Source: an uncultured Pseudohongiella sp.
Lineage (GTDB): Bacteria > Pseudomonadota > Gammaproteobacteria > Pseudomonadales > Pseudohongiellaceae
Assembly (NCBI GenBank): GCA_965115845.1
Contig: OZ220475.1
Span: 1,496,368 to 1,560,367 of the forward strand
Length of the DNA stretch: 64,000 nucleotides
Reading direction: 5' to 3'
In this document: positions 11,090-41,206 of the stretch, one piece after another
Layout: every line of letters starts with the position of its first letter
Numbering within the stretch: position 1 is the stretch's first letter
The notes under the pieces: model-generated
What the model was told of the DNA's origin: nothing
The model's database searches: none
Seen by the model: the letters and a program-made list of their open reading frames with translations, nothing else
Program-made: the position numbers and the translations under genes

Positions 11090-11356
11090 GAAGTTTCCGC
11101 CATTTTGATTCGCAGTGCCGCGAAGTATCCTCCGCGCTGATCGGGCAGTTCCGGCCAAGCCCAAATATCCCACCAACCCGACCGCGATTGCAAGCGGGAA
11201 GCCCGGAGATTTCGCGGCAAGCGCCATGACCTGCGGGGGCGGGGCATGGGATTTCCCGCGCGAACCCGGCCTGCTTGCGACGGACAGCCCTTTTCGGAGG
11301 GTCGATAATGATCGATCGGAGCCGGGAGGAAACACCCGGCTCCGACAATTCGCGAA

Positions 11357-22035: not shown

Positions 22036-25000
22036 TCAGAGGATGAAATCATCCGCGGTCAAGCTGCCCGGTTTCAATGAACCATCATTATTGAGCATAT
22101 AGCCGTCAATCTCTTCTTCGGTTCTTCCCGCTAGCCCGATGGCCATGTCGGTCTCCTTGTCGAAATCGCCGTTTCCATTGATGTCGACCAATATCCAGAG
22201 AAAATGCGCGAATTGCTCATGCGAGCCACGCGATATTCCGATTTGGTTGTCCACGTAGGTGTCTTCTTTGGTTTTGATAGCCACGATAGTGTGCTGGCCA
22301 AATGTATGGCCGCCCTTATCGTTGACAGCTTTGAAAACCCCTTTCGCTTTTGCCTCGTTTTCATATAGATAGTTCGACAGATTATTGTTATGGGTTATGT
22401 GTTTAATCTCCTTTCCCCCTACCTTTATCGCCAAGTCAAGAGCGCTGAGGTCGATCTTGTCGGCATACGGTTTTAAGGTGCTGCCGCTGCCGCCGGACGA
22501 AACGAAGTTGAAGATGACATCCATGCCTGTCGGATTATCTGCATTGCTGCCCGTAAATGCGACTTGAGAATCGGATGCCTTTTCGTAAACGAACGTGTCC
22601 CTCTCAGATTCAGTTCCGTCACTTTCTCTTGCTGGATGGAAGACGCCGCCCGTCAACTCGTCCCCGCCGGCACCGCCCGCGATTCTGTCCTTGCCCTTGC
22701 CGCCGGCGATAATATCGTCGCCGCCGTAGCCCCACAACTTGTCGTCGCCGCCGCCGTTGTACACGATGATGTCGCCGCCGCCGTCGGAGCCGTGAATTTC
22801 CATGTCGTTTTCAAAGGTGACGCCGTCGCTTCCATAGGTGGGAGCCTCGGAATCGCCAAAAGTGTTGCCGGTCCTCAATGACAATCCGCCGGTGTTGTCG
22901 CGGGCGTCTATCATGTCCAGATCGCTGGTTTTGCCGCTGGTTTCGCCGCCGCCGTTGCCGGACAGATAGAATCCGGCGTTGCCGGTAATTGTCAGCGTTT
23001 CGAGGCCCTCGCCCTCAAGATGGGAAATCTCATGCAGGTAATGCGAAGCCTTCAAATCCGATTTCCCGACGACAACGCTGGAATCCATGGTCAACTCCTC
23101 GATGTCCTCGTCCAAAACGAGCTTCGTGCTCGTCAAGCCCAGATGCGTTATGGTGGAAGGGTCGAGTTCTTTATTCCTTGTGGGGTCTGCGGTGCTGATG
23201 ACGACATCTTTATTGAACGGCACTTTTTCGCCCGAGACCGTTGTGCCGGCGCCGTCGGCGGCAACTCCATAGCTTTTCAAGACGAGACTGGTTTCGGCAT
23301 CGTCGGCGTCTTTTTCCAGCATATAGCTTACATCGAAGTAATATTCATCGCTGCTTGATGATCTTTTGGCTTCGATGGCGAGACCCGACGCGGACTCCCC
23401 GACATTCTCGAACTTGATCGCGGGCGCGGTGCCGGACGTCACGCCTTTGGTCACCGTCAGCTTATGCAGCATGAGTTCCTCGAGATCGTACTTACCGGCA
23501 GCGGCGGACTTGTCGGCCTCCACCGTCAGGGTTGTCTTTTCAAAATTCATGAAGACATCGTCGTCGACATTCTTCAATTGGCTCGCCTTGTTCGCCGTCA
23601 GCGTCAGCGTGTCCTCGCCCGCGCCGCCGTCGACCCGGCTCCTGGCGCTGACGACGACGCCGGCGCCGATCGTGAACATGTCGTCGCCTTCGCCCAGCTC
23701 CGCCTTCAGGCCGTCCTTATGGAATTCCGTCGCCGCGACATCGTCCTTGCCCGAACCGCCCATGTAGCTCTCGACGCTTTTGCCGAGCCTGCTCACCTTG
23801 ACATCGCCGGTCGCCTCGCTCGCGTCGATGCTCTTCAGCGTCGCGGATATGACGATCGGGTCGGCCTCGGTCGGGTTGACCGCCGGCTTGAACTTGGTCG
23901 CGTCCAGCATCAGGTTGCCGGCGCCGGAAACGGAGACCGTCTCGATCTCGTCCGAAGCCAGGCGGATGTTGGAGTCGCCCTTCACCTCGATCGCCAGATC
24001 CTCGATGCCCTTGAGGCACAACTTGCCGTGCTCGCTCGCTGTGGAATACAGGCCGAACTTGTCGACCATCGCCGTCAGCGATGTCGGGTCGTCGCCCTTG
24101 ACATCGTTCTGCACGAGCAGGGTGGTGTTGGTGTTGGCGAGAGAGATATCCGTGATCGCCGTCGAGTAGATGTGCACCGGAACCGTGTCTGCGCTCGCTG
24201 TGATTTGATCTGCGGTGACCGTTGTGCCATCTATTTTGTCGTCCGTCTTGAACTTGCCTCGTTTGTCGGGCGTGCCCAGGCCGTCGTGCACGTCGTCGAG
24301 CGTCACGCTCTCGACCGTCGCGGAAGGCGCGTCCTCCTTGCCCACGTCGACGGTCTTGCCGCCTTCGACCATGATCGAAGTCGTCGTATCCGTGTCGTAG
24401 AGGCCCACATCCGCCATCTTGCTCACGCCTTCAAGCTTGACCGCGGCGGCGTTCATGATCTCGACCGTCGTATCCTTGTCGTCGTCGCCCAGGGATTTGG
24501 ACATGATGTCCGCGCCGCCGGCATCCAGTTCGACATCTCCCTCGACATCGCTCAGGACGACCTCCTTCAGGCCTTCCCAGCCGCTCAAGTCCGCCTCGAA
24601 GTCGCCGCCGCTGTCGACCGTCAGCGTCTCGACGTTCATCACGCTCGCCCCGGAAGAGACGCTGACATTGTCGTCGGAGCCGCTGGAAGAAAGCTCCAGC
24701 GTGTCCATGCCCTCGCCGCCGTCGAGCCGGTCCACGCCGGTCAGGGTCTTCTCGGTGGCGACGAAAGTGTCGTCGCCCAGGGTGCCGTCGAGCCGGTCGA
24801 CACCCGTGGTCAATTCAAAGCTCTTGCCGGGACGCCGCATCATGTCGATGGCTTCCTTCGCAGTATCGACGCTGTCACCGTCGCCGGTCACGCCGCCGAG
24901 CACGCTCGAGGAAGCACCTTCCCAGCGTTTCTCCACGGTGTAATAGGTCGCCACCTGCACCTTGTTGGCGAACATCATGGCGAGGGCGCCGAAATCGCCG

Positions 25001-25389
25001 TAGGCGGGATGGCTTTCCCCCTGCATGCGGATCTCGAACAATTGCCGCACAGCCAGCAAGCCCATCTCGCCCCGGCCCAGGCCGCCGTTGAGCAGGCCCG
25101 TCGCCAGGGCCAGCACTTCCGCCGACGGCGCTTCGCCGAGCGCCGCGGTCAGAAAATCCCGGGCGAACTCCGCGTTCGTGATGAAAAAGGGATACATGGA
25201 CGTGAAGGCGCTCGAGGCGGCGATGTGATTCGCCACCTCCAGCAGGGCCATTTCCGGGCTCATGCCCTTGTCCACGCTTGCGTTGTAGACACCGTACCAT
25301 TCGTTGAGCAGCTCGGTGCCCGGGGCCTTGCCCAGCATGGCCACCGACAGGCCGATTATCGTATCTCTGGTTTGCGCTGTTACCGCCAA
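22036..25389 (-). CDS. RsaA-like S-layer/RTX protein, predicted type I secretion substrate (paralog 1); the start codon shown is TTG without SD
   Basis: 1117 aa. The N-terminus (M)AVTAQTRDTIIGLSVAMLGKAPG and TTGVDRLDGTLGDDTFVA blocks resemble RsaA-type S-layer proteins (from memory). Ca-binding nonapeptides GGGDDKLWGYGGDDIIAGGKGKDRIAGGAGGDELTGG. The C-terminal DTFVYEKASDS...DVIFNF...ADKIDLS matches the T1SS C-terminal target pattern. The protein is acidic and Cys-poor. Confidence 0.8.
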   Translation of the reverse strand: MAVTAQTRDTIIGLSVAMLGKAPGTELLNEWYGVYNASVDKGMSPEMALLEVANHIAASSAFTSMYPFFITNAEFARDFLTAALGEAPSAEVLALATGLLNGGLGRGEMGLLAVRQLFEIRMQGESHPAYGDFGALAMMFANKVQVATYYTVEKRWEGASSSVLGGVTGDGDSVDTAKEAIDMMRRPGKSFELTTGVDRLDGTLGDDTFVATEKTLTGVDRLDGGEGMDTLELSSSGSDDNVSVSSGASVMNVETLTVDSGGDFEADLSGWEGLKEVVLSDVEGDVELDAGGADIMSKSLGDDDKDTTVEIMNAAAVKLEGVSKMADVGLYDTDTTTSIMVEGGKTVDVGKEDAPSATVESVTLDDVHDGLGTPDKRGKFKTDDKIDGTTVTADQITASADTVPVHIYSTAITDISLANTNTTLLVQNDVKGDDPTSLTAMVDKFGLYSTASEHGKLCLKGIEDLAIEVKGDSNIRLASDEIETVSVSGAGNLMLDATKFKPAVNPTEADPIVISATLKSIDASEATGDVKVSRLGKSVESYMGGSGKDDVAATEFHKDGLKAELGEGDDMFTIGAGVVVSARSRVDGGAGEDTLTLTANKASQLKNVDDDVFMNFEKTTLTVEADKSAAAGKYDLEELMLHKLTVTKGVTSGTAPAIKFENVGESASGLAIEAKRSSSSDEYYFDVSYMLEKDADDAETSLVLKSYGVAADGAGTTVSGEKVPFNKDVVISTADPTRNKELDPSTITHLGLTSTKLVLDEDIEELTMDSSVVVGKSDLKASHYLHEISHLEGEGLETLTITGNAGFYLSGNGGGETSGKTSDLDMIDARDNTGGLSLRTGNTFGDSEAPTYGSDGVTFENDMEIHGSDGGGDIIVYNGGGDDKLWGYGGDDIIAGGKGKDRIAGGAGGDELTGGVFHPARESDGTESERDTFVYEKASDSQVAFTGSNADNPTGMDVIFNFVSSGGSGSTLKPYADKIDLSALDLAIKVGGKEIKHITHNNNLSNYLYENEAKAKGVFKAVNDKGGHTFGQHTIVAIKTKEDTYVDNQIGISRGSHEQFAHFLWILVDINGNGDFDKETDMAIGLAGRTEEEIDGYMLNNDGSLKPGSLTADDFIL

Positions 25390-26036
25390 TCAGAACTTGT
25401 TGATATGCCTGCGTATTTGCCGGATTCCCGCGGGCCGGCCGCTGAATCGCCGCGCGAACATGAACGGGAACTTCCGGCCCGCGGAGCCGTCGGCCGGGGC
25501 AGCCTCGCGGCACTCCGTCGAATAATTTTTCGGGGCAGCGACATCGCGTTCTGCGGGCAGCGACACCGCGCGGCGGACCGAAACGCGGCCGCGAAAAAGG
25601 CGCGCATCGCGCGAATCCCTCTCCGGAAACGCGCGCGGCGGCCCGACGGCCGAATCGCCCGCCGTCCCGGCTCGGCGGGTCGCGGGAAAACCAAACTGCT
25701 TGCGGCGGTGCAAGAAATTTGTCGGCAACTATCTGATTTGCAAGTAATAAAATAAGCCGAAGCTCGGCGCTCGACGGCTTTCTCGAAAGCGCTCCCTCGG
25801 CCTGCGAGATGTCTCGCGTTCACTTCCAGGCCGGGGCCGAGGCGGGCCGCGCAACCGGCCGGAACGCGTCGCGGCTGGGCGCAATACCGGCGTTTCGCGG
25901 CCGCTTGGGCGGCCAAAAAATTTCGATAACTTGTGATCCCGGTCACATGCGCGCGGCGCGGGTACTGTCGTACAATATCGCCATGCGAAACCCTTCCCCA
26001 ATTTTACAGGAGCACTCCCAATGGCGGTAACAGCGC
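25374..26036. promoter_or_regulatory. Predicted invertible promoter/start-codon segment (inverton 1), bounded by 15-nt perfect inverted repeats, apparently in OFF orientation
   Basis: Left arm GCGCTGTTACCGCCA (25374-25388) is the reverse complement of right arm TGGCGGTAACAGCGC (26022-36). The left arm is codons 1-6 of the 22036-25389 gene. The right arm is preceded, inside the segment, by a promoter, AGGAG and ATG that point away from the gene. Confidence 0.55.
25932..25976 (+). promoter_or_regulatory. CRP/Vfr-type palindrome plus -10 box inside inverton 1 (class II-like promoter reading toward the right arm)
   Basis: TGTGA-tcccgg-TCACA at 25932-25947. After a 23-nt gap comes TACAAT at 25971-25976. 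AGGAG at 26008-26012 and ATG at 26021. Confidence 0.5.
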
Positions 26037-26164
26037 TTACCGCAAATTGGTTTGCCCGGGCTGCCGGCGGCGATGCCGGACAATGCGCCGGGCCGAAAAG
26101 TCAGGAGAAAAGGGAACAGGCTTCATATTCGCCGGCGCCGGGAACGGCATTCCTCTTGATGTGA
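26021..26164 (+). CDS. 47-codon read-out ORF created by the current inverton orientation (MAVTALTANWFARAAGG...); probably not a functional product
   Basis: AGGAG-N8-ATG. The first five residues, MAVTA, match the S-layer-like gene because they are encoded by the inverted repeat. The ORF is too short for the ORF track and runs toward a convergent gene. Confidence 0.3.
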   Translation: MAVTALTANWFARAAGGDAGQCAGPKSQEKREQASYSPAPGTAFLLM

Positions 26165-26269
26165 AATCAGCGTCGATGGCGGAAGAAAGCAATCCGGTGT
26201 CGCAGGCAGGCGGGTTTTGATGCGGATACATCCGCGGTCATGACCAGAAGCCGGGCCGAGACACTCGTC

Positions 26270-26368
26270 AAACCGGATTCGACGGCGCAAGCCATTGAAT
26301 TCGGGAGCAGGACAAGACCGCGCTCTGGTTCTGCGGCAATTGAACAATTCCACGAATGGAATTGTTCA
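26270..26368 (-). repeat. Modular intergenic repeat, reverse orientation, degenerate (C-B-A)
   Basis: ccggattcgacggcgcaagccattgaattcggg, then agcaggacaagaccgcgctctggttctgcggcaat, then tgaacaattccacgaatggaattgttca. Confidence 0.7.
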
Positions 26369-26376
26369 GCGAATGC

Positions 26377-27012
26377 TCAGTGCACGGTCGCGGATGCGGG
26401 CCGGCCGCCGGTCTGGGCGAATGCGGGATGCAGCAAGTCCGTGCGTCCTACCACGAGCAGGTCGTTGCGATACAGGCTTTTCCCGCCGGTTTCGCCGTCG
26501 ATCCGAAGATCGTCGAGCAGCACGCAGGCAACTTCCTCCTCGGCGACTTCAACGACGACGCAGGGCTTGAAACCGCCGACTGTATTGAGCGAGGCGAGGC
26601 AGCCGACCGCGGCTTCGTGGCGCGGATACTCTCCGGCGGCGGTCTTGAGCGCGCCGGCGGGAAGATAGGGCGCGCCGAAACCCGCGGCGGCGACGATGTG
26701 GATGATTTCAATTACTTCGGGGTCGGTCAGGTCCAGGCGCACGGTATCGGGCTGGTCCGTGCCGCGTCCAAGCCGGCGCTGGTTGACCAGGCGCATGAAC
26801 AGGTCGAGATCGCTCTGGTTCCATTCCAGGATCTCTTCGCCGGCGGAAATACCCGGGTCGGAGGCGAGCCTGAGGATGCCGGTTTCTATGGTGAGGTCGA
26901 AAGTTTCGGAATCGTCGGGACCGGGCACCACCATGGCTACGGAATACGAGCCCTTGTCTTCGTTCGCGCACAACCGCCAGAGAAAAGGCACTTCTCCCGT
27001 CAATTCGATCAT
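26377..27012 (-). CDS. Hypothetical protein, 211 aa, no family recognised
   Basis: ORF 26377-27213, trimmed to MIELTGEVPFLWRLCANEDKGSY at 27012. Strong third-position GC bias on this strand (ATC GAA TTG ACG GGA GAA GTG ...). The opposite-strand ORF 26356-27105 lacks that bias. Confidence 0.55.
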   Translation of the reverse strand: MIELTGEVPFLWRLCANEDKGSYSVAMVVPGPDDSETFDLTIETGILRLASDPGISAGEEILEWNQSDLDLFMRLVNQRRLGRGTDQPDTVRLDLTDPEVIEIIHIVAAAGFGAPYLPAGALKTAAGEYPRHEAAVGCLASLNTVGGFKPCVVVEVAEEEVACVLLDDLRIDGETGGKSLYRNDLLVVGRTDLLHPAFAQTGGRPASATVH

Positions 27013-27333
27013 CGGCGACTCATCAACGCCATGGACGGAGAGGCGCGAGCAGGACTGCGAGGAGCAACATTGCCGGACATTCCACAGGAAGACCTGCGCG
27101 GATAGTACCACAAAACCCGGCGCCGACCGCCGGCGCGCTTCCTTCCAGCCGCTTCGCTCCTTCCATCGGAAGCGCGCGACCCCGTTTTCCCGAACTGAAT
27201 CAACCGTTGTCAAAACGGCGATTCAGCCTCATATGCATCTGAACCGGCGCACGCGCTGGCAAGGCGGAGCCGCAGCCACTATAGTCGGACCATTGCCGAA
27301 AGGGTATTTTCCAGCCTTGCGCGGTCAGCTTCG

Positions 27334-27356
27334 CCATCCACAGAATCTGTGGATAA
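27334..27356. promoter_or_regulatory. Inverted pair of DnaA-box-like 9-mers inside an AT-rich intergenic island
   Basis: ccATCCACAGaatCTGTGGATaa is an 8-bp perfect palindrome. The minus strand of 27348-27356 reads TTATCCACA, the consensus DnaA box. The plus strand of 27334-27342 reads CCATCCACA (7 of 9). Confidence 0.3.
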
Positions 27357-27704
27357 CTTGGTGAATAAGTCCGGGCGATGTTGCGGAAACCTTGCGGCGA
27401 CGGGAATTTCGGCAAAATTGCACAAATTTTGATCAAAAATATAATTTCATTGTATATCAATGAGTTAAATCTTATTTGCCGATCATGAAAAAATATGAAG
27501 CTGCAATTGTCAGCGTTTTGTTTCAGTACGGTCGTTTTTGTGCATAAATTTCCGATCTTGTGCCGGTTCGGGAAAAAGCGGCCATTTGTTGCTTGCTGTT
27601 TTTATTGAATTTTTCCTGAAATAAAAAACCATTCGTTCCAGTTCGCCATGCCGGGAAACGGAACAGCCGCAACGGCGGACAACGGATCGCGACGGACTTG
27701 CGCC

Positions 27705-28778
27705 ATGTCATTCGAAAGATACAACATCGCACGAATGCGGGGCTACGCTCCCGGCGAACAGCCGGATTCGCCCGCGATCATCAAACTCAATACCAATGAG
27801 AATCCGTATCCGCCGCCGGCCGCGGTCGCCGCGGCCTTGCGCGCCATGGACGGCGCCGAACTGCGCCGCTATCCCCCTCCCCTGGCCGACGATTTCCGCG
27901 CTCTCGCCGGGCTGGTCCACGGCCTTGCCCCGGAGAGCATTCTTCCGGTCAACGGCGGCGACGAGTTCCTGCGGCTGCTGCTCGCCACATTCGTCGATTC
28001 CGACGAGATCCTGGCGGTGATGCGGCCGTGTTATTCGCTGTACCCCGTGCTCGCCGCGGCCGCCGGTTGCGGACTGCTGAACATTCCCCTGACCAGGGAT
28101 TGGGGGGTGCCGGACCGCTTGCCGGCGTTATTGCGCGGACACGATGTCAAGATGCTGGTCCTCGCCAATCCCCACGCGCCGACCGGCGGATTGCTGCCGG
28201 TCGACCGCCTGCGCCGGCTCGCGCGGGATTTCGAGGGCCTGCTGGTGCTCGACGAAGCCTACGCCGACTTCATCGACCCCGCCCTCGAGTACGACTCGAT
28301 GCCGCTCGTCAGGGAATTCCCGAACGTGCTGATCTTGCGCACCATGAGCAAGGGTTATTCGCTCGCCGGACTGCGTTTCGGCTACGGCATCGGGCCGCCC
28401 GGCCTGATCCATCCCATGGCGACCAAGACCAGGGACAGCTACAACACGGATCTCGTCTCCCAGAAGTTGGCCAGGGCGGCGCTGGAGTCCAGAGACGAGG
28501 CCGCGCGGACCTGGGCGCGGGTCAGGCGGTCCCGCGAATGGCTGCGCGGCCAACTTGCCGGGCTGGGCCTCGAAACCCTGGCCAGCCAGGGCAATTTCCT
28601 GCTGGCCGCGATTCCTGCCGCCGTCGGCGCCGTCAACCTCTATCGGGCCCTGAAGGAGCGCGGCGTCCTCGTGCGCCATTTCGCCGAGCCCCGGCTCGAC
28701 AACCGGCTGCGAATCACCGTCGGCAGCGAAACCGACAACGAAATCCTCATCGACAAGTTGCGGGACATCCTGCAATGA
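27705..28778 (+). CDS. hisC: Histidinol-phosphate aminotransferase family (class II aminotransferase)
   Basis: MSFERYNIARMRGYAPGEQ...IKLNTNENPYPPP...LRTMSKGYSLAGLRFGYG (PLP-lysine block). Start taken at the second Met of ORF 27648. Confidence 0.8.
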   Translation: MSFERYNIARMRGYAPGEQPDSPAIIKLNTNENPYPPPAAVAAALRAMDGAELRRYPPPLADDFRALAGLVHGLAPESILPVNGGDEFLRLLLATFVDSDEILAVMRPCYSLYPVLAAAAGCGLLNIPLTRDWGVPDRLPALLRGHDVKMLVLANPHAPTGGLLPVDRLRRLARDFEGLLVLDEAYADFIDPALEYDSMPLVREFPNVLILRTMSKGYSLAGLRFGYGIGPPGLIHPMATKTRDSYNTDLVSQKLARAALESRDEAARTWARVRRSREWLRGQLAGLGLETLASQGNFLLAAIPAAVGAVNLYRALKERGVLVRHFAEPRLDNRLRITVGSETDNEILIDKLRDILQ

Positions 28779-29020
28779 TCTTTTCCCTGTTGAAGACCAA
28801 CAAGAAGACTTCCGCCGCCCTCGCCGGCATCGCCATCGGCATCGCGAGCCTGTGGGGATTGTCGCTATGGCAGGATATTTCCGTCGGGGAATTGCTGCGC
28901 CTGCTGCTTGCGGTGCTGGCCATGCTCGGCGGGCTCGCCCTGGTCGCGTTCTGCGCCGTCGCCCTGGGCAAATTGTCATTCGCGGGCGTTGCGCTCCTGA
29001 TCCGGCGCCTGCGCTCCTGA
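28775..29020 (+). CDS. Small membrane protein (81 aa, two predicted TM helices)
   Basis: ATGA overlap with the hisC stop. MIFSLLKTNKKTSAALAGIAIGIASLWGLSLW...LLAVLAMLGGLALVAFCAVALG. Confidence 0.45.
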   Translation: MIFSLLKTNKKTSAALAGIAIGIASLWGLSLWQDISVGELLRLLLAVLAMLGGLALVAFCAVALGKLSFAGVALLIRRLRS

Positions 29021-29722
29021 GAGACGGCCGAGACGGCCGCGCAAGGGCTGCAGATCCCGCCAGCAGAGCTTCTTCAGGTCGGGAAAGGCGAGCATTTCCC
29101 GCAAGCCGCGAGTAATGGTCACTTGCATGCGGACGCCGCCGACGAGACGGGAAAAATCCGTCGCCGACGGCGCGGCCTGCGGAAACAACTCGCTGTCGTC
29201 ATGCGCGAAAATCAGCAAATTGGGACAACGGTCGCGCTGACACAGGTCTTCCAGCAAACGGCCCCGGGCCGCGTCCGTTGCGGCGGGATCCCGATGCGGA
29301 ACGGCGATTTCGGCGCCGGCGGCCAGCGACCTCCCCAGGGCTTGCAGGATATTCGCCAGCAAATCGCGGCATTGCGCGCCTTCCGCGTTTTCCCATTCGT
29401 CTTGCGCGAGCAATGCCAGCGAATCGTCGACGCGCAGATAATGCAGGACGGCGCGCGCGGCGCCGGCCGCGGATTCCGCCGGCGGCGGCCGCGCCCGAAC
29501 CGGGCGCTGCGCCGGCGCGGCGGCGCGTTGCGTCGGCTGGCCGGAACGGCGCGCCGGCGCGTCCGGAGGGCGCGCTCGCCGGGGCTTCGGAGATTCGACC
29601 GGGAAGACCGGCGAAGGTCCGGCATTTTTCGGAACCACCCGCGCGTACCACGGCTGAATTCCCATCAGCGCCAGGTATTCCCGCCGCCTGCTCTCGTTCC
29701 TGTTGCCTTCGGTTTCCGTCAT
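28976..29722 (-). CDS. DNA polymerase III psi (HolD)-like protein with Pro/Ala-rich linker
   Basis: ORF 28976-29971 trimmed to MTETEGNRNESRRREYLALMGIQPWYAR. The N-terminal L-x-x-MGI-x-x-W and the C-terminal LREMLAFPDLKKLCWRDL resemble E. coli HolD QLGITQW and LRANPTARAALWQQI (recalled). The central region is low-complexity. Confidence 0.45.
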   Translation of the reverse strand: MTETEGNRNESRRREYLALMGIQPWYARVVPKNAGPSPVFPVESPKPRRARPPDAPARRSGQPTQRAAAPAQRPVRARPPPAESAAGAARAVLHYLRVDDSLALLAQDEWENAEGAQCRDLLANILQALGRSLAAGAEIAVPHRDPAATDAARGRLLEDLCQRDRCPNLLIFAHDDSELFPQAAPSATDFSRLVGGVRMQVTITRGLREMLAFPDLKKLCWRDLQPLRGRLGRLSGAQAPDQERNARE

Positions 29723-29969
29723 GAGCGCACCGCCTCGACCGGCAGTCCCGGGCGGGAAAATAACCCTTGTCCCGCCGCTTGCGCAAGCGTTCCGGAGCCG
29801 TTGCGCCGGTCCAGATAACCATGAGACCGGATCGCCGTCTCGACAACGGCCGGTTCGGACGGATGCTCGCGCCGCACATCCCGGAGCAGACGCCTGACCG
29901 CAGCGCGGCGCATCCTCATTATTCAGGGGATGCGGCCGTACGACCGGTATTTTCATCGCCTCGAACAGC

Positions 29970-29998
29970 AAAACCCCCGACCGAAGCCGGGGGTTTTT
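29970..29998 (-). terminator. Rho-independent terminator candidate downstream of S-layer-like paralog 2
   Basis: AAAACCCCCG-accgaagc-CGGGGGTTTTT. On the minus strand the stem is followed by TTTTG. It lies 55 nt after the stop at 30053. Confidence 0.6.
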
Positions 29999-30052
29999 GG
30001 GTCTGGGAACACCGAATGACCGGGTTCCGGTTACGACCGGCGAAGCGCCGGG

Positions 30053-33000
30053 TCAGATGAAATCCCCTCCTTGCAAATCACCGGTGCCGCTGTAGGGCTC
30101 CAGCGCCAGCAGCGCAATAGCCATATCAGTGGTGGCGTCGAAATCACCGTCCCCATCTACATCGACAAGAACCCAGGTCACACCCACTGTACCCGTACCC
30201 TCAGCTGAATTACCGATCTTTCGGAAGTCGACGCTCTCCGCGGTAGTCTTGATAGTGGCAACGGTGTTTTTTTGCGGAAACGAATTGCCATCCGCTGGCG
30301 TTTCGAAGGCGCCGGCAAGCTTACCTGAAGTCAGGTATTCCTTTAGCGATGTCTTTCCATCAACAGTCGCATCCCTGACCTGTCCATTCAAGTCCACTAC
30401 ACCGGAAAGATCGATCTTGTCTTCCCCGCTCCTGAAACCAATGATTCTGTCAAAACCAGACGCCGGATCCCCTGCCTGATTGAATTTGATTCGAGAGTCG
30501 GATGCATGTTTGTAAATGAAGGTATCTTTTGCCTCGTCAACACCAGCCGCATAGGTCCCCCCCAAGTAGGAATTGCCAGAATCACCAAAAGACGCAAACT
30601 GAAAGTAAATGTTTGGCTCGTTGTTCAAATTGATGAGCCACAACCAAACTGAACGCGGAATTAATACATCTCCCCCGGCACCGCCGGTAAGCATGTCTTC
30701 TCCCTTGCCGCCAGCCAGCACATCATCTCCCCCGCCACCTTTCAGCTCGGTTTTCATTTCGTGGCCATTGTTGGTCCCATTAAGATTTGCTACCACCCAA
30801 TCATTGACCGGACTACCCTCAACTACCAGTTTCTCCGACGATCCGCTCTTTGCTGCTCTCAGCAAAGCAAGCCCTCCAGAACTTTCTCGCGCATCCACCA
30901 ATTCCAGGGATTGCAGTCCAGCCTTGTCGTAATCCCAAGCTCTGTTTTTCCTGGCTATGGTTGTGTTTATGAAGGTTTTGGCTTCGCCAGTGACTTTGAT
31001 TTCCTCAATCCCATCGCCCTGCCTGACGACAACCCTGTTGACGTAGTCCCCGGCCTTGGGGCGGTTATCGGCAACCGTTGAAATGACTTTCGCCGTGGAG
31101 CGCACGACCAGTTCCTCGATGTCCTTGTCCAAAGTGAGGTCCAATGCCGTCATCTTTACGTTATGCTTTACACCGAAATCCCCTTTCTCGTCCTTCGTGC
31201 CGCCGTCGGTGTGCAGATGCAGCATCAACGAGTCGTCGTCGCCGCCGTCCTCCAGCATGTAGCTCACCACAGCGGTCGTGGCCTGCGCCTTGGTCTCCTG
31301 CGGCTTGCTTTCGTCGTCGGGCTTCGGCTTTTTGCTCGAAACCGCCAGACCGGTGCCGGACATCAGGTTCTTGAACGTGACGCCGCCGGTGCCGGTGCCG
31401 CCGGTCACCTTCAGGTTGTCGATGTCGAGCTCCTTGACATCGTAGGTTCCCGAGCCTTCGCCCGCTTCCAGTGTGATGGTCTCGAAGCCCGTGTAGGCGT
31501 CTCCGGCCCCCTTGAGGTTGGCACCGGTCTTTTCCTTCAACACCAGCGTGTCCATGCCCGCGCCGCCGTCTATCCGGCTCTTGCCGGCCTTGACGTTGGC
31601 GACGGTGAACATGTCGTCGCCGGCGCCGAGGTTCGCCGTCAAGCCGTCCTTCGCGAACGCCGCCACGCTGACTTCGTCCTTGCCCGCGCTGCCCATGTAG
31701 CTCGTGACGCTCGCGCCCAGATTGCTCAACTTGACGGCGCCGCTAGCCTCGCTTGCGTCGACCGTCTTCAGTTTCTTCAGCCCCATCGCGTCCAGCGTCG
31801 TCTTGCCGGAGCCGGACAAGGTCAGTTTCTCCAGCGTCTCGGACGGCTTGACATCGGCCGCTTTCTCCGCCACCGCCGGCGCGAATTTGGTCGCGGACAG
31901 CGTCAGGTCGCCGGCGCCGGAAACGGCGACCGTCTTGATCTGGTCCGAAGCCAGGCGAATGCTGGAATCGCCCTTCACCTCGATCATCAGGTCTTCGATG
32001 CCCTTGAGGCACAACTTGCCGTGCCCGTTGGCCGCGTTGCCGAACCGGTCGACCATGGCCGTCAGCGACATCATGTCCTTGGCGGCGTTCTCCACCAGCA
32101 AGGTGGTGTTGGTGTTGCGCAGGTCGACGGACTCGATCGCCTTCGAGTAGATGTGCACCGGAACCCTGTCCTTGTTGTTGACCGCGGCTGTGTCGCCTGC
32201 GGCCGGCGTGTCGGTGCCGTAGCGCTTGCCGTCGTCGCCCATGCCGTCGTGTACGCCGTCGAGCGTCACGCTCCTGACCGTCTCCGAATGCGCGGTCGAC
32301 TTGCCCACCTCGACACCCATGCCGCCTTCGACCATGACCGAGGTCGTCGTGTCCGTGCCGAAGATATTCACCTGCGCGCGGGCGTTCACGTACTCGAGGT
32401 TGACAGAGGCGGTGTTCACGATCTCTATTGTCGTATCCTTGTCGTCGTCGCCCAGGGATTCGGACACGACGTCCGCGCCGCCGGCATCCAGTTCGACATC
32501 TCCCGCAACGTCCAGCTCGACCGTCGCGAGGCCCGTCCAGCCGCTAAGGTCCGCATCGAAGTCGCCGCCGCTGTCGACCGTCAGCGTCTCGACGTGCATG
32601 ACGCTCGCTCCGGAAGAGATATTGACATCGTCGTCGGAGCCGCTGGAAGAAAGCTCCAGCGTGTCCATGCCCTCGCCGCCGTCGATCCGGTCCACCCCGG
32701 TCAGGGTCTTCTCGGTGGCGACGAAGGTGTCGTCGCCCAGGGTGCCGTCGAGCCGGTCGACGCCCGCGGTCAACTCGAAGCTCTTGCCGGGACGCCGCAT
32801 CATGTCGATGGCTTCCTTGGCCGCGGTCACGCTGTCGCCGTCGCCGGTCACGCCGCCGAGCACGCTCGCAGAGTCGCCTTCCCAGCGCCTGGTAACGGTG
32901 TAGTACGTGGCCACTTCCACCTTGTTGGCGAACATCATGGCGATGGCGCCGAAATCGCCGTAGGCGGGGTGGCTTTCTCCCTGCATGCGAATCTCGAACA

Positions 33001-33349
33001 ACTGCCGCACGGCCAGCAGACCCATCTCGCCCCGGCCCATGCCGCCGTCGAGCAGGTCCGTCGCCAGGGCCAACACTTCAGCCGACGGCGCTTCGCCCAG
33101 GGCCGCGGTCAGGAATTCCGTCGCGAACTCCCTATTCGTGATGAAGAAGGGATACATGGACGTGAAAGCGCTCGAGGCGGCGATGTGATTCGCCAACTCC
33201 AGCAGGGCGTCTTCCGGGCTCATGCCCTTGCCGACGCTCGCGTTGTAGACGCCGTACCATTCATTGAGCAATGCGGTGCCCGGGGCCTTGCCCAGCATGG
33301 CCACCGACAGGCCGATTATCGTATCTCTGGTTTGTGCAGTTACCGCCAA
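30053..33349 (-). CDS. RsaA-like S-layer/RTX protein, predicted type I secretion substrate (paralog 2); the start codon shown is TTG without SD
   Basis: 1098 aa. The first ~290 aa are nearly collinear with paralog 1, and the centre and C-terminus diverge. RTX block GGGGDDVLAGGKGEDMLTGGAGGDVL. C-terminal DTFIYKHASDS...DRIIGFRSGEDKIDLS. Confidence 0.8.
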   Translation of the reverse strand: MAVTAQTRDTIIGLSVAMLGKAPGTALLNEWYGVYNASVGKGMSPEDALLELANHIAASSAFTSMYPFFITNREFATEFLTAALGEAPSAEVLALATDLLDGGMGRGEMGLLAVRQLFEIRMQGESHPAYGDFGAIAMMFANKVEVATYYTVTRRWEGDSASVLGGVTGDGDSVTAAKEAIDMMRRPGKSFELTAGVDRLDGTLGDDTFVATEKTLTGVDRIDGGEGMDTLELSSSGSDDDVNISSGASVMHVETLTVDSGGDFDADLSGWTGLATVELDVAGDVELDAGGADVVSESLGDDDKDTTIEIVNTASVNLEYVNARAQVNIFGTDTTTSVMVEGGMGVEVGKSTAHSETVRSVTLDGVHDGMGDDGKRYGTDTPAAGDTAAVNNKDRVPVHIYSKAIESVDLRNTNTTLLVENAAKDMMSLTAMVDRFGNAANGHGKLCLKGIEDLMIEVKGDSSIRLASDQIKTVAVSGAGDLTLSATKFAPAVAEKAADVKPSETLEKLTLSGSGKTTLDAMGLKKLKTVDASEASGAVKLSNLGASVTSYMGSAGKDEVSVAAFAKDGLTANLGAGDDMFTVANVKAGKSRIDGGAGMDTLVLKEKTGANLKGAGDAYTGFETITLEAGEGSGTYDVKELDIDNLKVTGGTGTGGVTFKNLMSGTGLAVSSKKPKPDDESKPQETKAQATTAVVSYMLEDGGDDDSLMLHLHTDGGTKDEKGDFGVKHNVKMTALDLTLDKDIEELVVRSTAKVISTVADNRPKAGDYVNRVVVRQGDGIEEIKVTGEAKTFINTTIARKNRAWDYDKAGLQSLELVDARESSGGLALLRAAKSGSSEKLVVEGSPVNDWVVANLNGTNNGHEMKTELKGGGGDDVLAGGKGEDMLTGGAGGDVLIPRSVWLWLINLNNEPNIYFQFASFGDSGNSYLGGTYAAGVDEAKDTFIYKHASDSRIKFNQAGDPASGFDRIIGFRSGEDKIDLSGVVDLNGQVRDATVDGKTSLKEYLTSGKLAGAFETPADGNSFPQKNTVATIKTTAESVDFRKIGNSAEGTGTVGVTWVLVDVDGDGDFDATTDMAIALLALEPYSGTGDLQGGDFI

Positions 33350-33995
33350 TCAGAACTTGTTGATATGCCTGCGTATTTGCCGGATTCGCGCGAACCGGCC
33401 GCTGAATCGCCGCGCAAACATGAACGGGAACTTCCGGCCAGCGGAGCCGTCGGCCGGGGCGGTCTCGCAGCGCTCGCCGAATAATTCTCCGGAGCAGCAA
33501 CACCACGTTTTCGGGACGGCGACACCGCGCGGCGGACCGAAACGCGGCCGCGAAAAAGGCGCGCATCGCGCGAATCTCTCCCCGGAAATGCGCGCGGCGA
33601 CCCGGTCGCCGAATCGTCCGCCGTCCCGGTTCGGCGGATCGCGGGAACACCGCCCCGCCTGCGGCGGCGCGAGAGATTTGCCGGCAATTGTTTGATTTAT
33701 CAGTAAATAAATAAGCCGGCGCACGGCGCTCGACGGCTTTCCCGGAAGCGTTCTGTCGACCTTCGAAGAGGCTCGCGATCATTTCCAAGCCGCCGCCGAG
33801 GCGGGCCGCGCAAGCGGCCGGAATGCGCCGCGGTCGGACGGAGCATCGGCGTTTCGCGGTTGCCTGGGCGGGCGAAAAATTTCGATAACTTGTGATCCGG
33901 GTCACATGCGCGCGGAGCGAATGTTGCTATATAATGCCGTTCTGCAACATTTTGTCTTTAATTTCAGGAGCGTCCCAAATGGCGGTAACTGCACA
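33333..33995. promoter_or_regulatory. Predicted invertible promoter/start-codon segment (inverton 2), bounded by 16-nt perfect inverted repeats, apparently in OFF orientation
   Basis: Left arm TGTGCAGTTACCGCCA (33333-33348) is the reverse complement of right arm TGGCGGTAACTGCACA (33980-33995). The interior is homologous to inverton 1 and has the same layout. Confidence 0.55.
33891..33935 (+). promoter_or_regulatory. CRP/Vfr-type palindrome plus -10 box inside inverton 2
   Basis: TGTGA-tccggg-TCACA at 33891-33906. After a 23-nt gap comes TATAAT at 33930-33935. AGGAG at 33966-33970 and ATG at 33979. Confidence 0.5.
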
Positions 33996-34077
33996 TACCG
34001 CGAACTGGTTTGCGCAGCCCGTCGCCAGCGATGCCGAAGGAATCGACGGGCAGTCCGACGGTCCGAATCCTCGATAG
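33979..34077 (+). CDS. 32-codon read-out ORF created by the current inverton orientation (MAVTAHTANWFAQPVASDAEG...); probably not a functional product
   Basis: AGGAG-N8-ATG. It shares MAVTA with the S-layer-like gene through the inverted repeat. It is the in-frame tail of track ORF 33892-34077. Confidence 0.3.
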   Translation: MAVTAHTANWFAQPVASDAEGIDGQSDGPNPR

Positions 34078-39128: not shown

Positions 39129-39338
39129 CCGGGAGACGAGGAAAACTTGCCAAGGCAACACGATTGAGACAGTATCGAAATTCCTGCAATCAAAATTCTC
39201 CAACCCATCGCAAGGTCCAGTCATATCCGGATTTCAGGCTCATTTCCTTGCTGGAAATCGCTGGCCGTCAACCGCCTCGACAACGAGAAACCGGCGGTGT
39301 CCCGGATGTGGCGGGCGACCGATACGGGAGCGATTCCG

Positions 39339-39950
39339 ATGGAACTTGAAACGACTGCGAAGGTGCCGGTCGAAAGGCTCCGCCTCGATCCGTTGAATCC
39401 AAGGCTGATCGGCGGGGATGAGAAAGCGTCCGACGAGGCGATTATCGCCCGGCTCTATCGCGCCGCTGAACTCGACGAGTTGCTCCAGTCGATCACTGCC
39501 AACGGTTACATGGACATCGAGCCGCTGGTCGTGATGGGTGATCTCGACTCGGAAAGCGGCGCCTTGACGGTGCTGGAAGGAAATCGGCGGCTTGCCGCAC
39601 TGCGTCTGCTGCGAGAGCCGGATTTGGTTCAGAGGATTCGGGACTCGGAGGGGGTTCGCATTTCAGTGCCGCGTATCGACGACCTGCGCCGAGCCGCCAC
39701 CCTCGACGCGGTGTCGGTGTATCCCGTCGCCAATCGCGAGCGCGCGCGGTCGTTCATCGGCTTCAAGCACATCAACGGCCCGGCGAAGTGGGACGCGTAC
39801 GCGAAGGCGCGGTTTGCGGCGGAATGGTACAGGTCGGGGCGAGCCGAGGGCATTGGTCTGGCGGCTATCGCCAGAGCCATCGGCGACAAGCATGACACCA
39901 TCAAGCGAATGGTTTCCGCCATCTACGTAGTTGGAGCAGGCCAAGGATGA
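39339..39950 (+). pseudogene. ParB/Srx N-terminal domain protein, apparently truncated or frameshifted at its 3' end
   Basis: MELETTAKVPVERLRLDPLNPRLIGG...VLEGNRRLAALRLL is the ParB-like GxxR box. The ORF stops at ...AIYVVGAGQG. A different frame continues as LEQAKDDFALWEMYF for about 35 codons and then stops. Confidence 0.5.
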
Positions 39951-40114
39951 TTTCGCGTTATGGGAAATGTACTTCACCGCCTTCGGGTGCCTCGCCGCGT
40001 CGCGGAAGCGGCGCAGCTCGCGAAGGAACCCGGAACGATGATCGAAGAATACGGCCAGCTGGCGGAAGCCGCGCGGTGGGTCGCGGACTATCGGGGTCGA
40101 GCGAGGGTGGCGGC

Positions 40115-41206
40115 ATGAGACATCGATTCCATTCGATCTGTCCTTATTTCGCCATGTTTCCAGAGACTTTCGTCGAGAAGCATCTCGCGGCGAGCCAGCA
40201 CCGGGGCGTTGTGTTCGACCCGTTCTGCGGGCGCGGGACGGCGGTTTTCCAGGCGCTCTTGCAGGATCGGGCCGCGGCCGGCTGCGATATGAACCCGGTT
40301 GCGGTCTGCATCTCCGGCGCGAAATGCGACCCGCCCGCGCAGCCCGAGGTCGAAACGCGGCTGGCGGAACTGCGCGACGGAGTCCGCTTCGGGGAAAATC
40401 GCGAATGGGACGGCGCCCATGCGGACTTCTTCGAACACTGCTTTCACCGCGACACGCTGTCGCAAGTGCTCCATTTGAGGTCGGCGCTCGACTGGCGCCG
40501 CCGCAGGGAAGACCGGTTCATCGCCGCGCTTTGCCTGGGTGCGCTGCATGGCGAGTCCCACCGGTCGCCCAATTGCTTCAGCAACCGCATGCCTCGCGCC
40601 ATCAGCACGAAACCGGACTATTCGGTGCGATGGTGGCGAAAGAACGGGTATGCGCCGCCGCCGCGCAATGTGTTCGATATCCTCGAACGAATGATCGAGT
40701 ATCGGTTTCGGTCGCGCCCTCCGCAACGAACAGGCAGCGTGGTCGAGTCGGATGCGCGACAAGTCGGCGACGTATTTCCGGGATTGAAGGGTCGCGTGAC
40801 CGACATCATCACCTCCCCGCCCTACCTCGATACAACGAATTATCGCGAGGATCAGTGGCTGCGCCTGTGGTTCCTCGGTTACAGGCCCATGGCTGCGCGC
40901 GACCGCGCCGACGACCGGCACTACAGCAAGGAAATATACTGGGAATTCTTGCGGGCATCCTGGAGAGGACTCGCTCCGTTGCTGGCGAAACAGGCCAGAC
41001 TGGTTGTGCGCATCGGCGGACGGCGCCTGAACAAGGCCGAGTTGCGAGAAGGACTCGCGCGGTCGCTGGAAGCAGGCCTGGACCGCAGCGCGCGGCTCGT
41101 CGATACCGGCATCAGTTCGAGAATCGGCAACACGCAGGCAAACGCATTTCGAGGCGCGAAGGCATCGCAACTCATGGAACATGATTTCACATTCAGTATC
41201 CTTTGA
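40115..41206 (+). CDS. SAM-dependent DNA methyltransferase (amino-MTase; motif I before SPPY), orphan
   Basis: Start MRHRFHSICPYF at 40115 with GAGGGTGG upstream. VFDPFCGRGTAVF is a motif I-like SAM site. DIITSPPYLDTTNY is motif IV, (S/D/N)PP(Y/F). No nuclease gene is adjacent. The stop codon lies inside the next repeat copy. Confidence 0.7.
   Translation: MRHRFHSICPYFAMFPETFVEKHLAASQHRGVVFDPFCGRGTAVFQALLQDRAAAGCDMNPVAVCISGAKCDPPAQPEVETRLAELRDGVRFGENREWDGAHADFFEHCFHRDTLSQVLHLRSALDWRRRREDRFIAALCLGALHGESHRSPNCFSNRMPRAISTKPDYSVRWWRKNGYAPPPRNVFDILERMIEYRFRSRPPQRTGSVVESDARQVGDVFPGLKGRVTDIITSPPYLDTTNYREDQWLRLWFLGYRPMAARDRADDRHYSKEIYWEFLRASWRGLAPLLAKQARLVVRIGGRRLNKAELREGLARSLEAGLDRSARLVDTGISSRIGNTQANAFRGAKASQLMEHDFTFSIL

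What the first reader, a model, noticed from the sequence alone, without database searches (positions are those of the whole stretch)
25374..33995. The inverted-repeat arms co-vary between the two loci, a sign of ongoing arm-to-arm recombination
The core at locus 1 is TGGCGGTAACAGCGC and at locus 2 is TGGCGGTAACTGCACA. The two locus-specific substitutions (A/T and G/A) are present on both arms of their own locus.

One arm is constrained as coding sequence. The other is constrained only as a throw-away ORF. Matching changes on both arms are therefore hard to explain by independent mutation. They are what repeated inversion or gene conversion between arms would produce.

Just outside the core the arms diverge: CAA against CTT or CAT at codon 6.
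Basis: seen in the sequence. Interest (0 to 1): 0.75.

Follow-up and report, generated by a model that had tools for sequence, protein, structure and literature searches.

The report
Two flip-switch promoters with matched spacers
Two neighbouring copies of a flippable promoter, each controlling a large surface protein gene, have recombination sites whose central 6 bases match within a copy but differ between copies, which is the known "spacer code" of recombinase-driven DNA switches seen here in an uncultured bacterium.

Summary
Both arms at locus 1 read TGGCGGTAACAGCGC. Both arms at locus 2 read TGGCGGTAACTGCACA.

Each locus is a ~650-bp promoter cassette lying flipped away from a ~1,100-aa RTX-type surface protein gene. 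The cassette holds a CRP-like site, a -10 box, AGGAG and ATG. Sixteen homologous loci in other gammaproteobacterial MAGs carry the same cassette fused directly to the gene. Flipping the cassette in silico restores that arrangement.

The right arms are near-palindromes with 13-bp arms around a 6-bp spacer: CCAATGGCGGTAA|CAGCGC|TTACCGCAAATTGG. Both locus-specific substitutions lie inside that spacer. They are also the only differences in a 114-nt block around the left arm.

This is the layout of a tyrosine-recombinase core site. There the overlap must be identical in partner sites, and inversion itself can copy a change from one arm to the other. A unique spacer per switch is already described for C. 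difficile RecV switches.

The matching is real and not chance (at most about 4e-4 under independent evolution). "Ongoing" inversion is unproven. Only one orientation is seen, no recombinase lies in the window, and no close relatives exist to widen the sample. I rate it a new member of a known kind.

The parts
22036..25389 (-). Surface protein gene 1 (1117 aa). It has a conserved N-terminal domain and RTX repeats with a serralysin-type C-terminal region. In this orientation it begins with TTG, with no ribosome-binding site and no promoter.
   Evidence: ORF list and translation. Pfam HemolysinCabind scores 22.3 bits against a cut-off of 23. NCBIfam gives a serralysin C-terminal match. GC3 is 0.77. 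dN/dS against paralog 2 is 0.13-0.19 over the first 200 codons.
30053..33349 (-). Surface protein gene 2 (1098 aa), a paralog of gene 1. The first ~300 residues are about 85-92% identical to gene 1; identity falls to about 53% over residues 300-400 and lower beyond. It likewise has a TTG start, no RBS and no promoter.
   Evidence: Pfam HemolysinCabind 23.9 bits and Peptidase_M10_C 20.9 bits.
25360..25392 (-). Left recombination site of switch 1. Read on the minus strand it is inner arm TGATTGGCGGTAA | spacer CAGCGC (25374-25379) | degenerate outer arm AAACCAGAGATACG, which is codons 6-10 of gene 1.
26018..26050 (+). Right recombination site of switch 1: CCAATGGCGGTAA | CAGCGC (26031-26036) | TTACCGCAAATTGG. 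It is a near-perfect 13-6-14 palindrome.
   Evidence: GCGGTAA-N6-TTACCGC matches with 0 mismatches. The extended symmetry shows in the fold. Coordinates.
33320..33352 (-). Left recombination site of switch 2: TGATTGGCGGTAA | CTGCAC (33334-33339) | AAACCAGAGATACG.
33976..34008 (+). Right recombination site of switch 2: CAAATGGCGGTAA | CTGCAC (33989-33994) | ATACCGCGAACTGG.
   Evidence: GCGGTAA-N6-TTACCGC matches with 1 mismatch..
25380..26030 (.). Invertible promoter cassette of switch 1, lying between the two spacers and seen here facing away from gene 1. It carries a CRP-like site TGTGATCCCGGTCACA (25932-25947), a -10 box TACAAT (25971-25976), AGGAG (26008-26012) and ATG (26021).
   Evidence: Flipping it in silico gives the arrangement found in 16 homologs.
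33340..33988 (.). Invertible promoter cassette of switch 2. It carries TGTGATCCGGGTCACA (33891-33906), TATAAT (33930-33935), AGGAG (33966-33970) and ATG (33979).
   Evidence: The interior is about 82% identical to cassette 1.
26021..26164 (+). Decoy ORF of switch 1 (47 aa, MAVTALTANWFA...). It is what the promoter, RBS and ATG read into in the OFF orientation.
   Evidence: Only the first 12 residues are shared with the decoy ORF of locus 2, so it is not a conserved protein.
33979..34077 (+). Decoy ORF of switch 2 (32 aa, MAVTAHTANWFA...).
25314..25427 (.). A 114-nt block around the left site. It is identical between the two loci (33274-33387 in locus 2) except for the two spacer positions 25375 and 25378.
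   Evidence: The chance that both of two differences fall in the 6-nt spacer is 0.0023.
25601..25613 (-). Terminator-like hairpin with a T-run inside the cassette, conserved at 33560-33572 in locus 2. A second one lies at 25756-25775. In the present orientation both face transcription coming from the right toward the big gene.
   Evidence: These are consensus matches only; function is inferred.

Best explanation
Each locus is a phase-variation switch of the invertible-promoter (inverton) kind. A ~650-bp cassette carries the only promoter, the ribosome-binding site and the ATG for a large secreted RTX-type surface protein gene. In this assembly both cassettes point away from their gene, which is the OFF state.

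The cassette is bounded by two recombination sites built like tyrosine-recombinase core sites. Each has ~13-bp binding arms, with TGGCGGTAA as the conserved inner arm, around a 6-bp overlap or spacer. The site overlaps the start codon and the first codons of the gene.

The two substitutions that distinguish the loci lie in that 6-bp spacer. Strand exchange needs the spacers of the two partner sites to be identical, while the spacer sequence itself is free. The spacer positions concerned are synonymous third-codon positions of the gene.

A spacer change on one arm can end up on both arms in two ways. One is heteroduplex segregation after an inversion. The other is selection of a compensating change.

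The result is two switches with different 'spacer codes'. They can flip independently without recombining with each other. Cross-recombination would delete or invert the roughly 7-8 kb of genes between them.

Shown: the anatomy, the non-random matching, the homology to directly fused promoters elsewhere, and purifying selection on both genes. Inferred: the type of recombinase, actual flipping, and the route of homogenisation.
For: 1. Exact inverted cores sit at homologous positions in two paralogous loci. The motif occurs nowhere else in the 64 kb window.
2. All 16 homologous loci from other MAGs have the TGTGA-N6-TCACA site (11 of the 16), AGGAG and ATGGCnGTnACnGC fused directly to the gene, with no inverted copy in the flanks. 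Flipping the window cassettes in silico restores this arrangement and yields MAVTAQTRDTII... with an ATG start and an AGGAG 8 nt upstream.
3. There is one promoter cassette per locus. The inner flanks of the left and right arms show no similarity, so this is an inversion and not an inverted duplication.
4. The right sites are dyad-symmetric around a 6-bp centre. GCGGTAA-N6-TTACCGC matches with 0 and 1 mismatches, and every other window match needs 3. The symmetry extends to about 13 bp on each side.
5. Both locus-specific changes fall in the 6-bp centre. They are the only differences in a 114-nt block around the left site (P=0.0023).
6. Independent evolution of the arms gives the observed pattern in at most 4e-4 of simulations.
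7. Both big genes are intact. Their dN/dS is 0.13-0.19 with dS 0.28-0.47 over the first 200 codons. They have therefore been functional since the duplication, although both lack a promoter, RBS and ATG in this orientation. This implies that the ON state is used.
8. The IR structure is older than the duplication, because homology continues beyond the right arm.
9. A published precedent exists. C. difficile RecV switches have binding motifs around a 6-bp spacer that is identical within a switch and unique to each switch. The stated reason is heteroduplex formation in the spacer (PMC12282940).
Against: - No tyrosine or serine recombinase was found among about 50 ORFs scanned across the window.
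- Only one orientation is observed, and both switches are OFF.
- The outer arm of the left sites is degenerate: about 7 of 14 positions match the right-site outer arm.
- The covariation rests on two loci and two substitutions.
- No close relative or second assembly of this genome could be retrieved, so a wider within-locus versus between-locus test was impossible.
- None of the 16 more distant homologs has the switch, so no comparative evidence of flipping exists.
Confidence: 0.68

Rival explanations
1. The switch is real, but flipping is done by a serine invertase (Hin/Gin/Mpi type) or by RecA-dependent recombination or gene conversion between the short repeats. The matching of the two positions would then come from ordinary gene conversion or compensatory selection, not from an overlap-identity rule.
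For: No recombinase of any type was identified, so the type is open. The two variable positions flank a central GC dinucleotide symmetrically. A 12-2-12 serine-type reading of the site is therefore geometrically possible.
Against: A serine recombinase needs identity only in the central 2 bp. It moves position 11 with the cassette and leaves position 14 in place, so it neither requires nor produces matching at both positions. A palindromic GC crossover would not define orientation. Fifteen to 20 bp is below the usual length needed for RecA-dependent exchange (established knowledge, not tested here). The 13-6-13 layout fits tyrosine-recombinase sites (PMC12282940).
Confidence: 0.14
2. This is a fossil. 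A single ancient inversion of the promoter region, mediated by a short inverted repeat, happened before the locus duplicated. The switch no longer flips, and the matched changes are parallel mutations or chance.
For: Both loci are in the same OFF orientation. The inverted configuration predates the duplication. No recombinase is present in the window and no second orientation is seen.
Against: Matched arms with two locus-specific changes arise in at most 4e-4 of simulations under independent evolution. The right-arm core and its outer arm are conserved in a flank that is otherwise about 60% identical. Both promoter-less genes remain intact 1,100-codon ORFs under purifying selection, with dN/dS 0.13-0.19 at dS 0.28-0.47. 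That is not expected for genes silenced permanently before the duplication.
Confidence: 0.08
3. The right-arm palindrome is mainly an RNA or DNA regulatory hairpin, such as an attenuator, terminator or operator at the start of a leader peptide. On this view it is not a recombination site. Its resemblance to the gene start would reflect a shared translation-initiation region.
For: The scan flags 26024-26043 as a terminator-like stem-loop. Both right arms fold into the hairpin, at -20.2 and -18.4 kcal/mol.
Against: Fold z-scores are weak, at -1.8 and -1.4. There is no T-run at locus 2. A hairpin does not explain why its loop sequence matches the left arm of the same locus 640 bp away on the other strand. 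It also does not explain why the promoter cassette is inverted relative to all homologs. The leader peptides are not conserved beyond residue 12.
Confidence: 0.05

Closest known systems
Clostridioides difficile RecV-dependent invertible switches (flagellar switch, cwpV and others) and their 'spacer code'
   Same: Short invertible DNA segments control surface structures. Each end has two recombinase-binding motifs around a 6-bp spacer. The spacer is identical at the two ends of one switch and differs between switches. The recombinase can be encoded far from the switches (PMC12282940; PMC2784873).
   Different: The phylum and the site sequence are unrelated. Here the site overlaps the start codon and first codons of the regulated gene, and the cassette carries the ATG and RBS. 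The two switches are recent paralogs whose spacers differ only by two synonymous codon changes. The recombinase is unidentified and flipping is unobserved.
E. coli fimS switch (FimB/FimE tyrosine recombinases)
   Same: A promoter sits on a few-hundred-bp invertible element bounded by short inverted repeats. It gives ON/OFF control of a surface structure, and transcription terminators and accessory-factor sites lie in or near the element (from established knowledge).
   Different: fimS has 9-bp repeats in the untranslated region and its recombinase genes are adjacent. Here the repeats are 15-16 bp (about 33-bp sites) and overlap the coding start. No recombinase gene is nearby.
Mycoplasma surface-lipoprotein inversion systems (vpma/Xer1, vsp, and vsa/HvsR)
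   Same: Tyrosine-recombinase sites at the 5' ends of paralogous surface protein genes move a single promoter region relative to the genes (PMC2268961). From memory, the M. pulmonis vsa site lies inside the 5' coding region, as the site does here.
   Different: Those systems shuffle one promoter among many oppositely oriented genes that share the same site. Here each gene has its own cassette, the two genes are in direct orientation, and the sites carry different spacers that should prevent exchange between loci.
Campylobacter fetus sap S-layer antigenic variation
   Same: Paralogous secreted surface-layer type proteins have a conserved N-terminal region and variable remainder. Expression is set by inversion of a promoter-bearing segment (established knowledge).
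   Different: sap inversion uses several hundred bp of conserved 5' coding sequence in oppositely oriented genes and is largely RecA-dependent. Here the repeats are 15-20 bp and the big genes are in direct orientation.
Bacteroides invertible promoters, including the phase-variable S-layer of B. thetaiotaomicron
   Same: Invertible promoters control surface layers or capsules. Many switches are served by a recombinase encoded elsewhere in the genome (PMC4611039, 10.1101/521070).
   Different: The capsule switches use the serine invertase Mpi with a shared repeat consensus. The repeats lie upstream of the coding sequence.

Membership tests
Invertible-promoter switch (inverton) | A short DNA segment is bounded by a pair of inverted repeats. 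| tested here: met
   There are 15-nt and 16-nt perfect inverted cores 633 and 631 nt apart at two paralogous loci, and no other exact copies of the motif in 64 kb.
Invertible-promoter switch (inverton) | A promoter inside the segment can drive the flanking gene in only one orientation. | tested here: met
   The CRP-like site, -10 box, AGGAG and ATG lie at the right end of each segment and face away from the big gene. The same cassette is fused directly to the gene in homologs. The in-silico flip restores that arrangement. Promoter activity itself was not measured.
Invertible-promoter switch (inverton) | Both orientations are present in a population. | not testable with these tools
   No reads are available. 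The genome exists as one assembly, and exact-protein look-ups returned nothing.
Invertible-promoter switch (inverton) | A site-specific recombinase catalyses the inversion. | tested here: inconclusive
   No recombinase domain was found in about 50 ORFs scanned across the window. The rest of the 3.38 Mb genome could not be searched. Recombinases encoded elsewhere are known for other switches.
Tyrosine-recombinase core-type site | Two inverted binding arms flank a 6-8 bp overlap region. | tested here: met
   The right sites are 13-6-14 near-palindromes. The left sites have a good inner arm (10 of 13) and a degenerate outer arm (about 7 of 14).
Tyrosine-recombinase core-type site | The overlap sequence is identical in the two partner sites, while the sequence itself is free to vary. 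| tested here: met
   The spacer is CAGCGC on both arms of locus 1 and CTGCAC on both arms of locus 2. The binding arm TGGCGGTAA is invariant in all four sites.
Tyrosine-recombinase core-type site | Staggered cleavage at the overlap edges by a tyrosine nucleophile. | not testable with these tools
   This requires biochemistry.
Serine-invertase (Hin/Gin/Mpi) site | 12-bp half-sites flank a 2-bp asymmetric crossover, usually with an enhancer in the segment and the invertase gene nearby. | tested here: inconclusive
   The central dinucleotide would be the palindromic GC. No invertase gene lies in the window. An enhancer was not searched for.
C. fetus sap-type homologous-recombination cassette inversion | Long conserved 5' regions lie in oppositely oriented cassette genes. 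| tested here: not met
   The two big genes are in direct orientation. The inverted repeat is only 15-20 nt.
RTX / type I-secreted surface protein | Glycine-aspartate nonapeptide repeats lie near the C-terminus. | tested here: met
   HemolysinCabind scores 22.3 and 23.9 bits against a cut-off of 23, and Peptidase_M10_C scores 20.9 bits. NCBIfam gives a serralysin C-terminal region match. The scores are borderline, and no T1SS genes were seen in the window.

The most novel reading that the evidence does not exclude
The two switches may be a natural snapshot of how orthogonal recombination-site pairs evolve after a switch duplicates. The 6-bp overlap lies in codons 4-5 of the regulated gene. Neutral synonymous drift of the gene could therefore supply new spacer alleles. 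Inversion across a single mismatch, followed by replication, would copy the allele onto the partner arm. Divergent spacers would then insulate the paralogous switches from each other. On this reading the coding sequence of the controlled gene sets the specificity of its own switch.
Probability: 0.3. Interest if true: 0.55.

Novelty: new member of a known kind. Interest (0 to 1): 0.42.

Why it matters
If the switches flip, this uncultured high-GC gammaproteobacterium varies two large secreted surface proteins independently. That would extend promoter-inversion phase variation to a lineage and a protein family where it has not been described.

The pair of young paralogous switches also shows, in nature, the spacer-identity rule that engineers exploit with heterospecific lox and FRT sites. 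It suggests a simple route by which new orthogonal site pairs can arise.

For genome annotation it is a warning. The two big genes look promoter-less and TTG-started only because the assembly captured the OFF state.

Tried and rejected
1. Exact-protein look-ups of both big proteins (two start choices each), of the neighbouring aminotransferase and molybdopterin oxidoreductase, and of two other window proteins all returned nothing. No alternative assembly, and so no alternative orientation, could be found.
2. One genome-collection scan, one metagenome scan and two protein searches gave only 16 loci at 38-55% identity. None has an inverted copy of the gene start. Housekeeping proteins of this genome are singletons at 90% identity. 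The within-locus versus between-locus test could not be extended beyond the two loci.
3. The recombinase hunt scanned about 50 ORFs across the whole window against Pfam, and a few against NCBIfam. None is a recombinase. The unknown ORFs between the switches (26377-27213, 28976-29971) have no family match.
4. An ORF inside the cassette was rejected. The minus-strand ORFs there are not conserved in frame between loci, because of a 1-nt indel near 25515.
5. An inverted duplication of the promoter was rejected. The inner flanks of the left and right arms share nothing outside the core.
6. The N-terminal domain has no Pfam hit and no match to any solved structure. 'S-layer-like' therefore remains an inference from the RTX architecture and the conserved N-terminus.
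7. An IHF-like motif next to the left arm (TATCAACAAGTTC on the minus strand) misses the consensus at one position. It was not pursued.

Full report

Yes. The decamer TGGCGGTAAC occurs exactly four times in the window, as two inverted pairs: 25379-25388(-)/26022-26031(+) and 33339-33348(-)/33980-33989(+).

Direct reading gives TGGCGGTAACAGCGC on both arms of locus 1, and TGGCGGTAACTGCACA on both arms of locus 2.

The two loci are a segmental duplication 7.96 kb apart. Homology runs from about 23907 to about 26100, through the right arm and 65-100 nt beyond it.

**2. What is there?**

- **The genes.** The left arms are the first codons of two large minus-strand ORFs, 22036-25389 (1117 aa) and 30053-33349 (1098 aa). 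Their first ~300 residues are about 85-92% identical and the rest diverges. They carry RTX nonapeptide repeats and a serralysin-type C-terminal region, which marks type I-secreted surface proteins.
- **The OFF state.** In this orientation the genes start with TTG directly after an in-frame TGA. They have no Shine-Dalgarno sequence and no promoter.
- **The promoter cassette.** Each right arm begins with ATG. It is preceded by AGGAG at a spacing of 8 nt, a -10 box (TACAAT or TATAAT) and a perfect CRP-type palindrome TGTGA-N6-TCACA. The ATG opens only a short ORF of 47 or 32 aa. The two short ORFs agree only in their first 12 residues.
- **Homologs.** I collected sixteen homologous loci from other gammaproteobacterial MAGs (Pseudohongiella, Pseudomonadales, Chromatiales; 38-55% identity). 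All have AGGAG and ATGGCnGTnACnGC fused directly to the long gene, and eleven also show the TGTGA-N6-TCACA site. None has an inverted copy of the start in the available flanks.
- **In-silico flip.** Flipping the window segments reproduces that arrangement and yields ATG-started MAVTAQTRDTII....
- **Not a duplication.** The inner flanks of the left and right arms share nothing outside the core. There is one promoter cassette per locus, inverted rather than duplicated.

The loci are therefore invertible-promoter switches, both captured in the OFF state.

**3. Where exactly do the co-varying positions lie?**

The right arms are near-palindromes:

| Site | Inner arm | Spacer | Outer arm |
|---|---|---|---|
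| Right arm, locus 1 | CCAATGGCGGTAA | CAGCGC | TTACCGCAAATTGG |
| Right arm, locus 2 | CAAATGGCGGTAA | CTGCAC | ATACCGCGAACTGG |
| Left arms, both loci | TGATTGGCGGTAA | same spacer as the right arm of the locus | AAACCAGAGATACG (degenerate; codons 6-10) |

The pattern GCGGTAA-N6-TTACCGC matches with 0 and 1 mismatches at the two right arms. All other window matches need 3 mismatches.

Both locus-specific substitutions fall in the 6-bp centre. In the gene they are synonymous third-codon positions (ACA/ACT and GCG/GCA). The same positions vary freely among the sixteen homologs.

Around the left site the two loci are identical over 114 nt (25314-25427) except at these two positions. The chance that both of two differences fall in the 6-nt spacer is 0.0023.

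Around the right site the flank is only about 60% identical. The core and the outer arm are nevertheless conserved.

**4. Is the matching chance?**

I simulated four independently evolving arms. Only the synonymous sites of the left arm were free, and the right arm was given various freedoms. Two or more locus-specific changes with perfect within-locus identity arose in at most 4e-4 of runs, and usually about 1e-5 or less. Independent mutation is a poor explanation.

**5. Mechanism**

Binding arms around a 6-8 bp overlap is the standard layout of tyrosine-recombinase core sites. The overlap becomes heteroduplex in the product, so it must be identical in the two partners, while its sequence is free. 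This is established knowledge for Cre, Flp and lambda Int. It is set out for inversion switches in PMC12282940.

The following is my inference from the standard two-step strand exchange. Suppose an inversion is completed across a single spacer mismatch. One chromosomal strand then carries one parental allele at both sites, and the other strand carries the other allele at both sites. Replication gives daughters with matched arms. A new spacer change is thus either lost or copied to both arms in one step. Positions outside the overlap are not homogenised.

This fits the abrupt loss of arm identity at core position 16 or 17, where the outer arms begin. Selection for a compensating mutation would give the same result.

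A serine invertase needs identity only in a central 2 bp. It would neither need nor create matching at both positions. The 15-20 bp repeats are short for RecA-dependent exchange.

**6. Is the switch in use?**

This is not shown directly. Indirectly, both genes are intact over about 1,100 codons. Since the duplication they have evolved under purifying selection, with dN/dS 0.13-0.19 at dS 0.28-0.47 in the first 200 codons. The duplication itself post-dates the inverted-repeat structure. Genes that lack a promoter, RBS and ATG in this orientation would not be maintained unless the other orientation is used.

Terminator-like hairpins inside the cassette are conserved at both loci. They face transcription that would otherwise read into the silent gene from the right. 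This is consistent with an insulated OFF state, but these are consensus matches only.

**7. What is missing**

- No recombinase gene is present in the window. About 50 ORFs were scanned, and the context is housekeeping: secDF, yajC, tgt, prfC, pilBCD, coaE, argJ, secA, lpxC, ftsQAZ, ddl and murC.
- The genome is a single 3.38 Mb contig whose housekeeping proteins have no relatives above 90% identity.
- Every attempt to retrieve another assembly or the rest of the genome failed.
- The within-locus versus between-locus test could not be widened. It rests on two loci and two substitutions.

**8. Comparison with what is known**

The closest match is the set of RecV-dependent switches in C. difficile. 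There each switch end has two binding motifs around a 6-bp spacer. [quoted passage not shown] The authors call this a spacer code that prevents recombination between different switches (PMC12282940).

The window shows the same logic in an unrelated lineage and with an unrelated site sequence. There are three particular features:
- The site overlaps the start codon and first codons of the regulated gene.
- The cassette carries the ATG and RBS, so the OFF state translates a decoy peptide.
- The two switches are young paralogs whose spacers differ only by synonymous codon changes.

The systems fimS, Mycoplasma vpma/vsa (PMC2268961), Bacteroides invertible promoters and C. fetus sap are more distant analogues. 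The sap-type mechanism is excluded by the short repeats and the direct orientation of the genes.

**9. Verdict**

It is a new member of a known kind. Interest is moderate.

Noticed in passing
window 25932-25947 and 33891-33906; also L001 about 5881-5896 and the upstream regions of L002, L004-L008, L010, L013, L016, L017: A perfect CRP-type palindrome TGTGA-N6-TCACA lies about 24 nt upstream of the -10 box, a spacing typical of class II sites. It is conserved in both window cassettes and in 11 of the 16 homologous loci. The surface protein family therefore appears to be under CRP/Vfr-like control in addition to the switch.
   Followed up: partly
window 25380-25427 = 33340-33387: The 48 nt just inside the left arm are 100% identical between the loci, although the rest of the cassette interior is about 82% identical. 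The stretch is relatively AT-rich. It contains an in-frame TGA immediately before the gene start and a near-IHF motif (TATCAACAAGTTC on the minus strand). It could be an accessory-factor site or the trace of recent conversion between the loci.
   Followed up: partly
L001-L017, first 30 nt of the homologous genes: The first codons (ATGGCAGTnACnGCTGAAACCAGAAC) and the AGGAGTA ribosome-binding region are conserved at the nucleotide level across genomes whose proteins are only 38-55% identical. Most Pseudohongiella-type loci also share a conserved 5'-UTR hairpin (GGTCAGTTTGCGCAAACTGACC). This suggests an RNA-level function for this leader.
   Followed up: no
L008 3040 and 4002: One Pseudomonadales MAG has two tandem direct copies of the RBS plus gene start, 962 nt apart. 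They could be tandem paralogs or a truncated copy. They are in direct, not inverted, orientation.
   Followed up: no
window 27197-27251 and 29802-29856: This is the longest inverted repeat in the region: 55 nt, 76% complementary, 2.55 kb apart. It brackets the aminotransferase gene (27648-28778) that lies between the two switches. Its meaning is unknown.
   Followed up: no
window 39297-41206: Two adjacent plus-strand ORFs lie amid housekeeping genes. One has a weak ParB-like match (TIGR00180, E=0.005). The other has a partial N6/N4 DNA methylase domain (PF01555, E=1.8e-11). Together they may be a remnant of a mobile or defence element.
   Followed up: no
window 26377-27213 (-) and 28976-29971 (-): Two ORFs between the switches have no Pfam or NCBIfam match. 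ORF 26377-27213 has gene-like codon bias (GC3 0.75). ORF 28976-29971 did not pass the same GC3 filter, and the overlapping plus-strand frame 29021-29818 did, so its coding status is uncertain. In the OFF state promoter 1 reads antisense into 26377-27213.
   Followed up: partly
window 8001-9000: There is a strong local AT skew (-0.33) inside the 1253-aa DUF4175-type ORF 7574-11335 (-). It probably reflects compositionally biased coding sequence.
   Followed up: no
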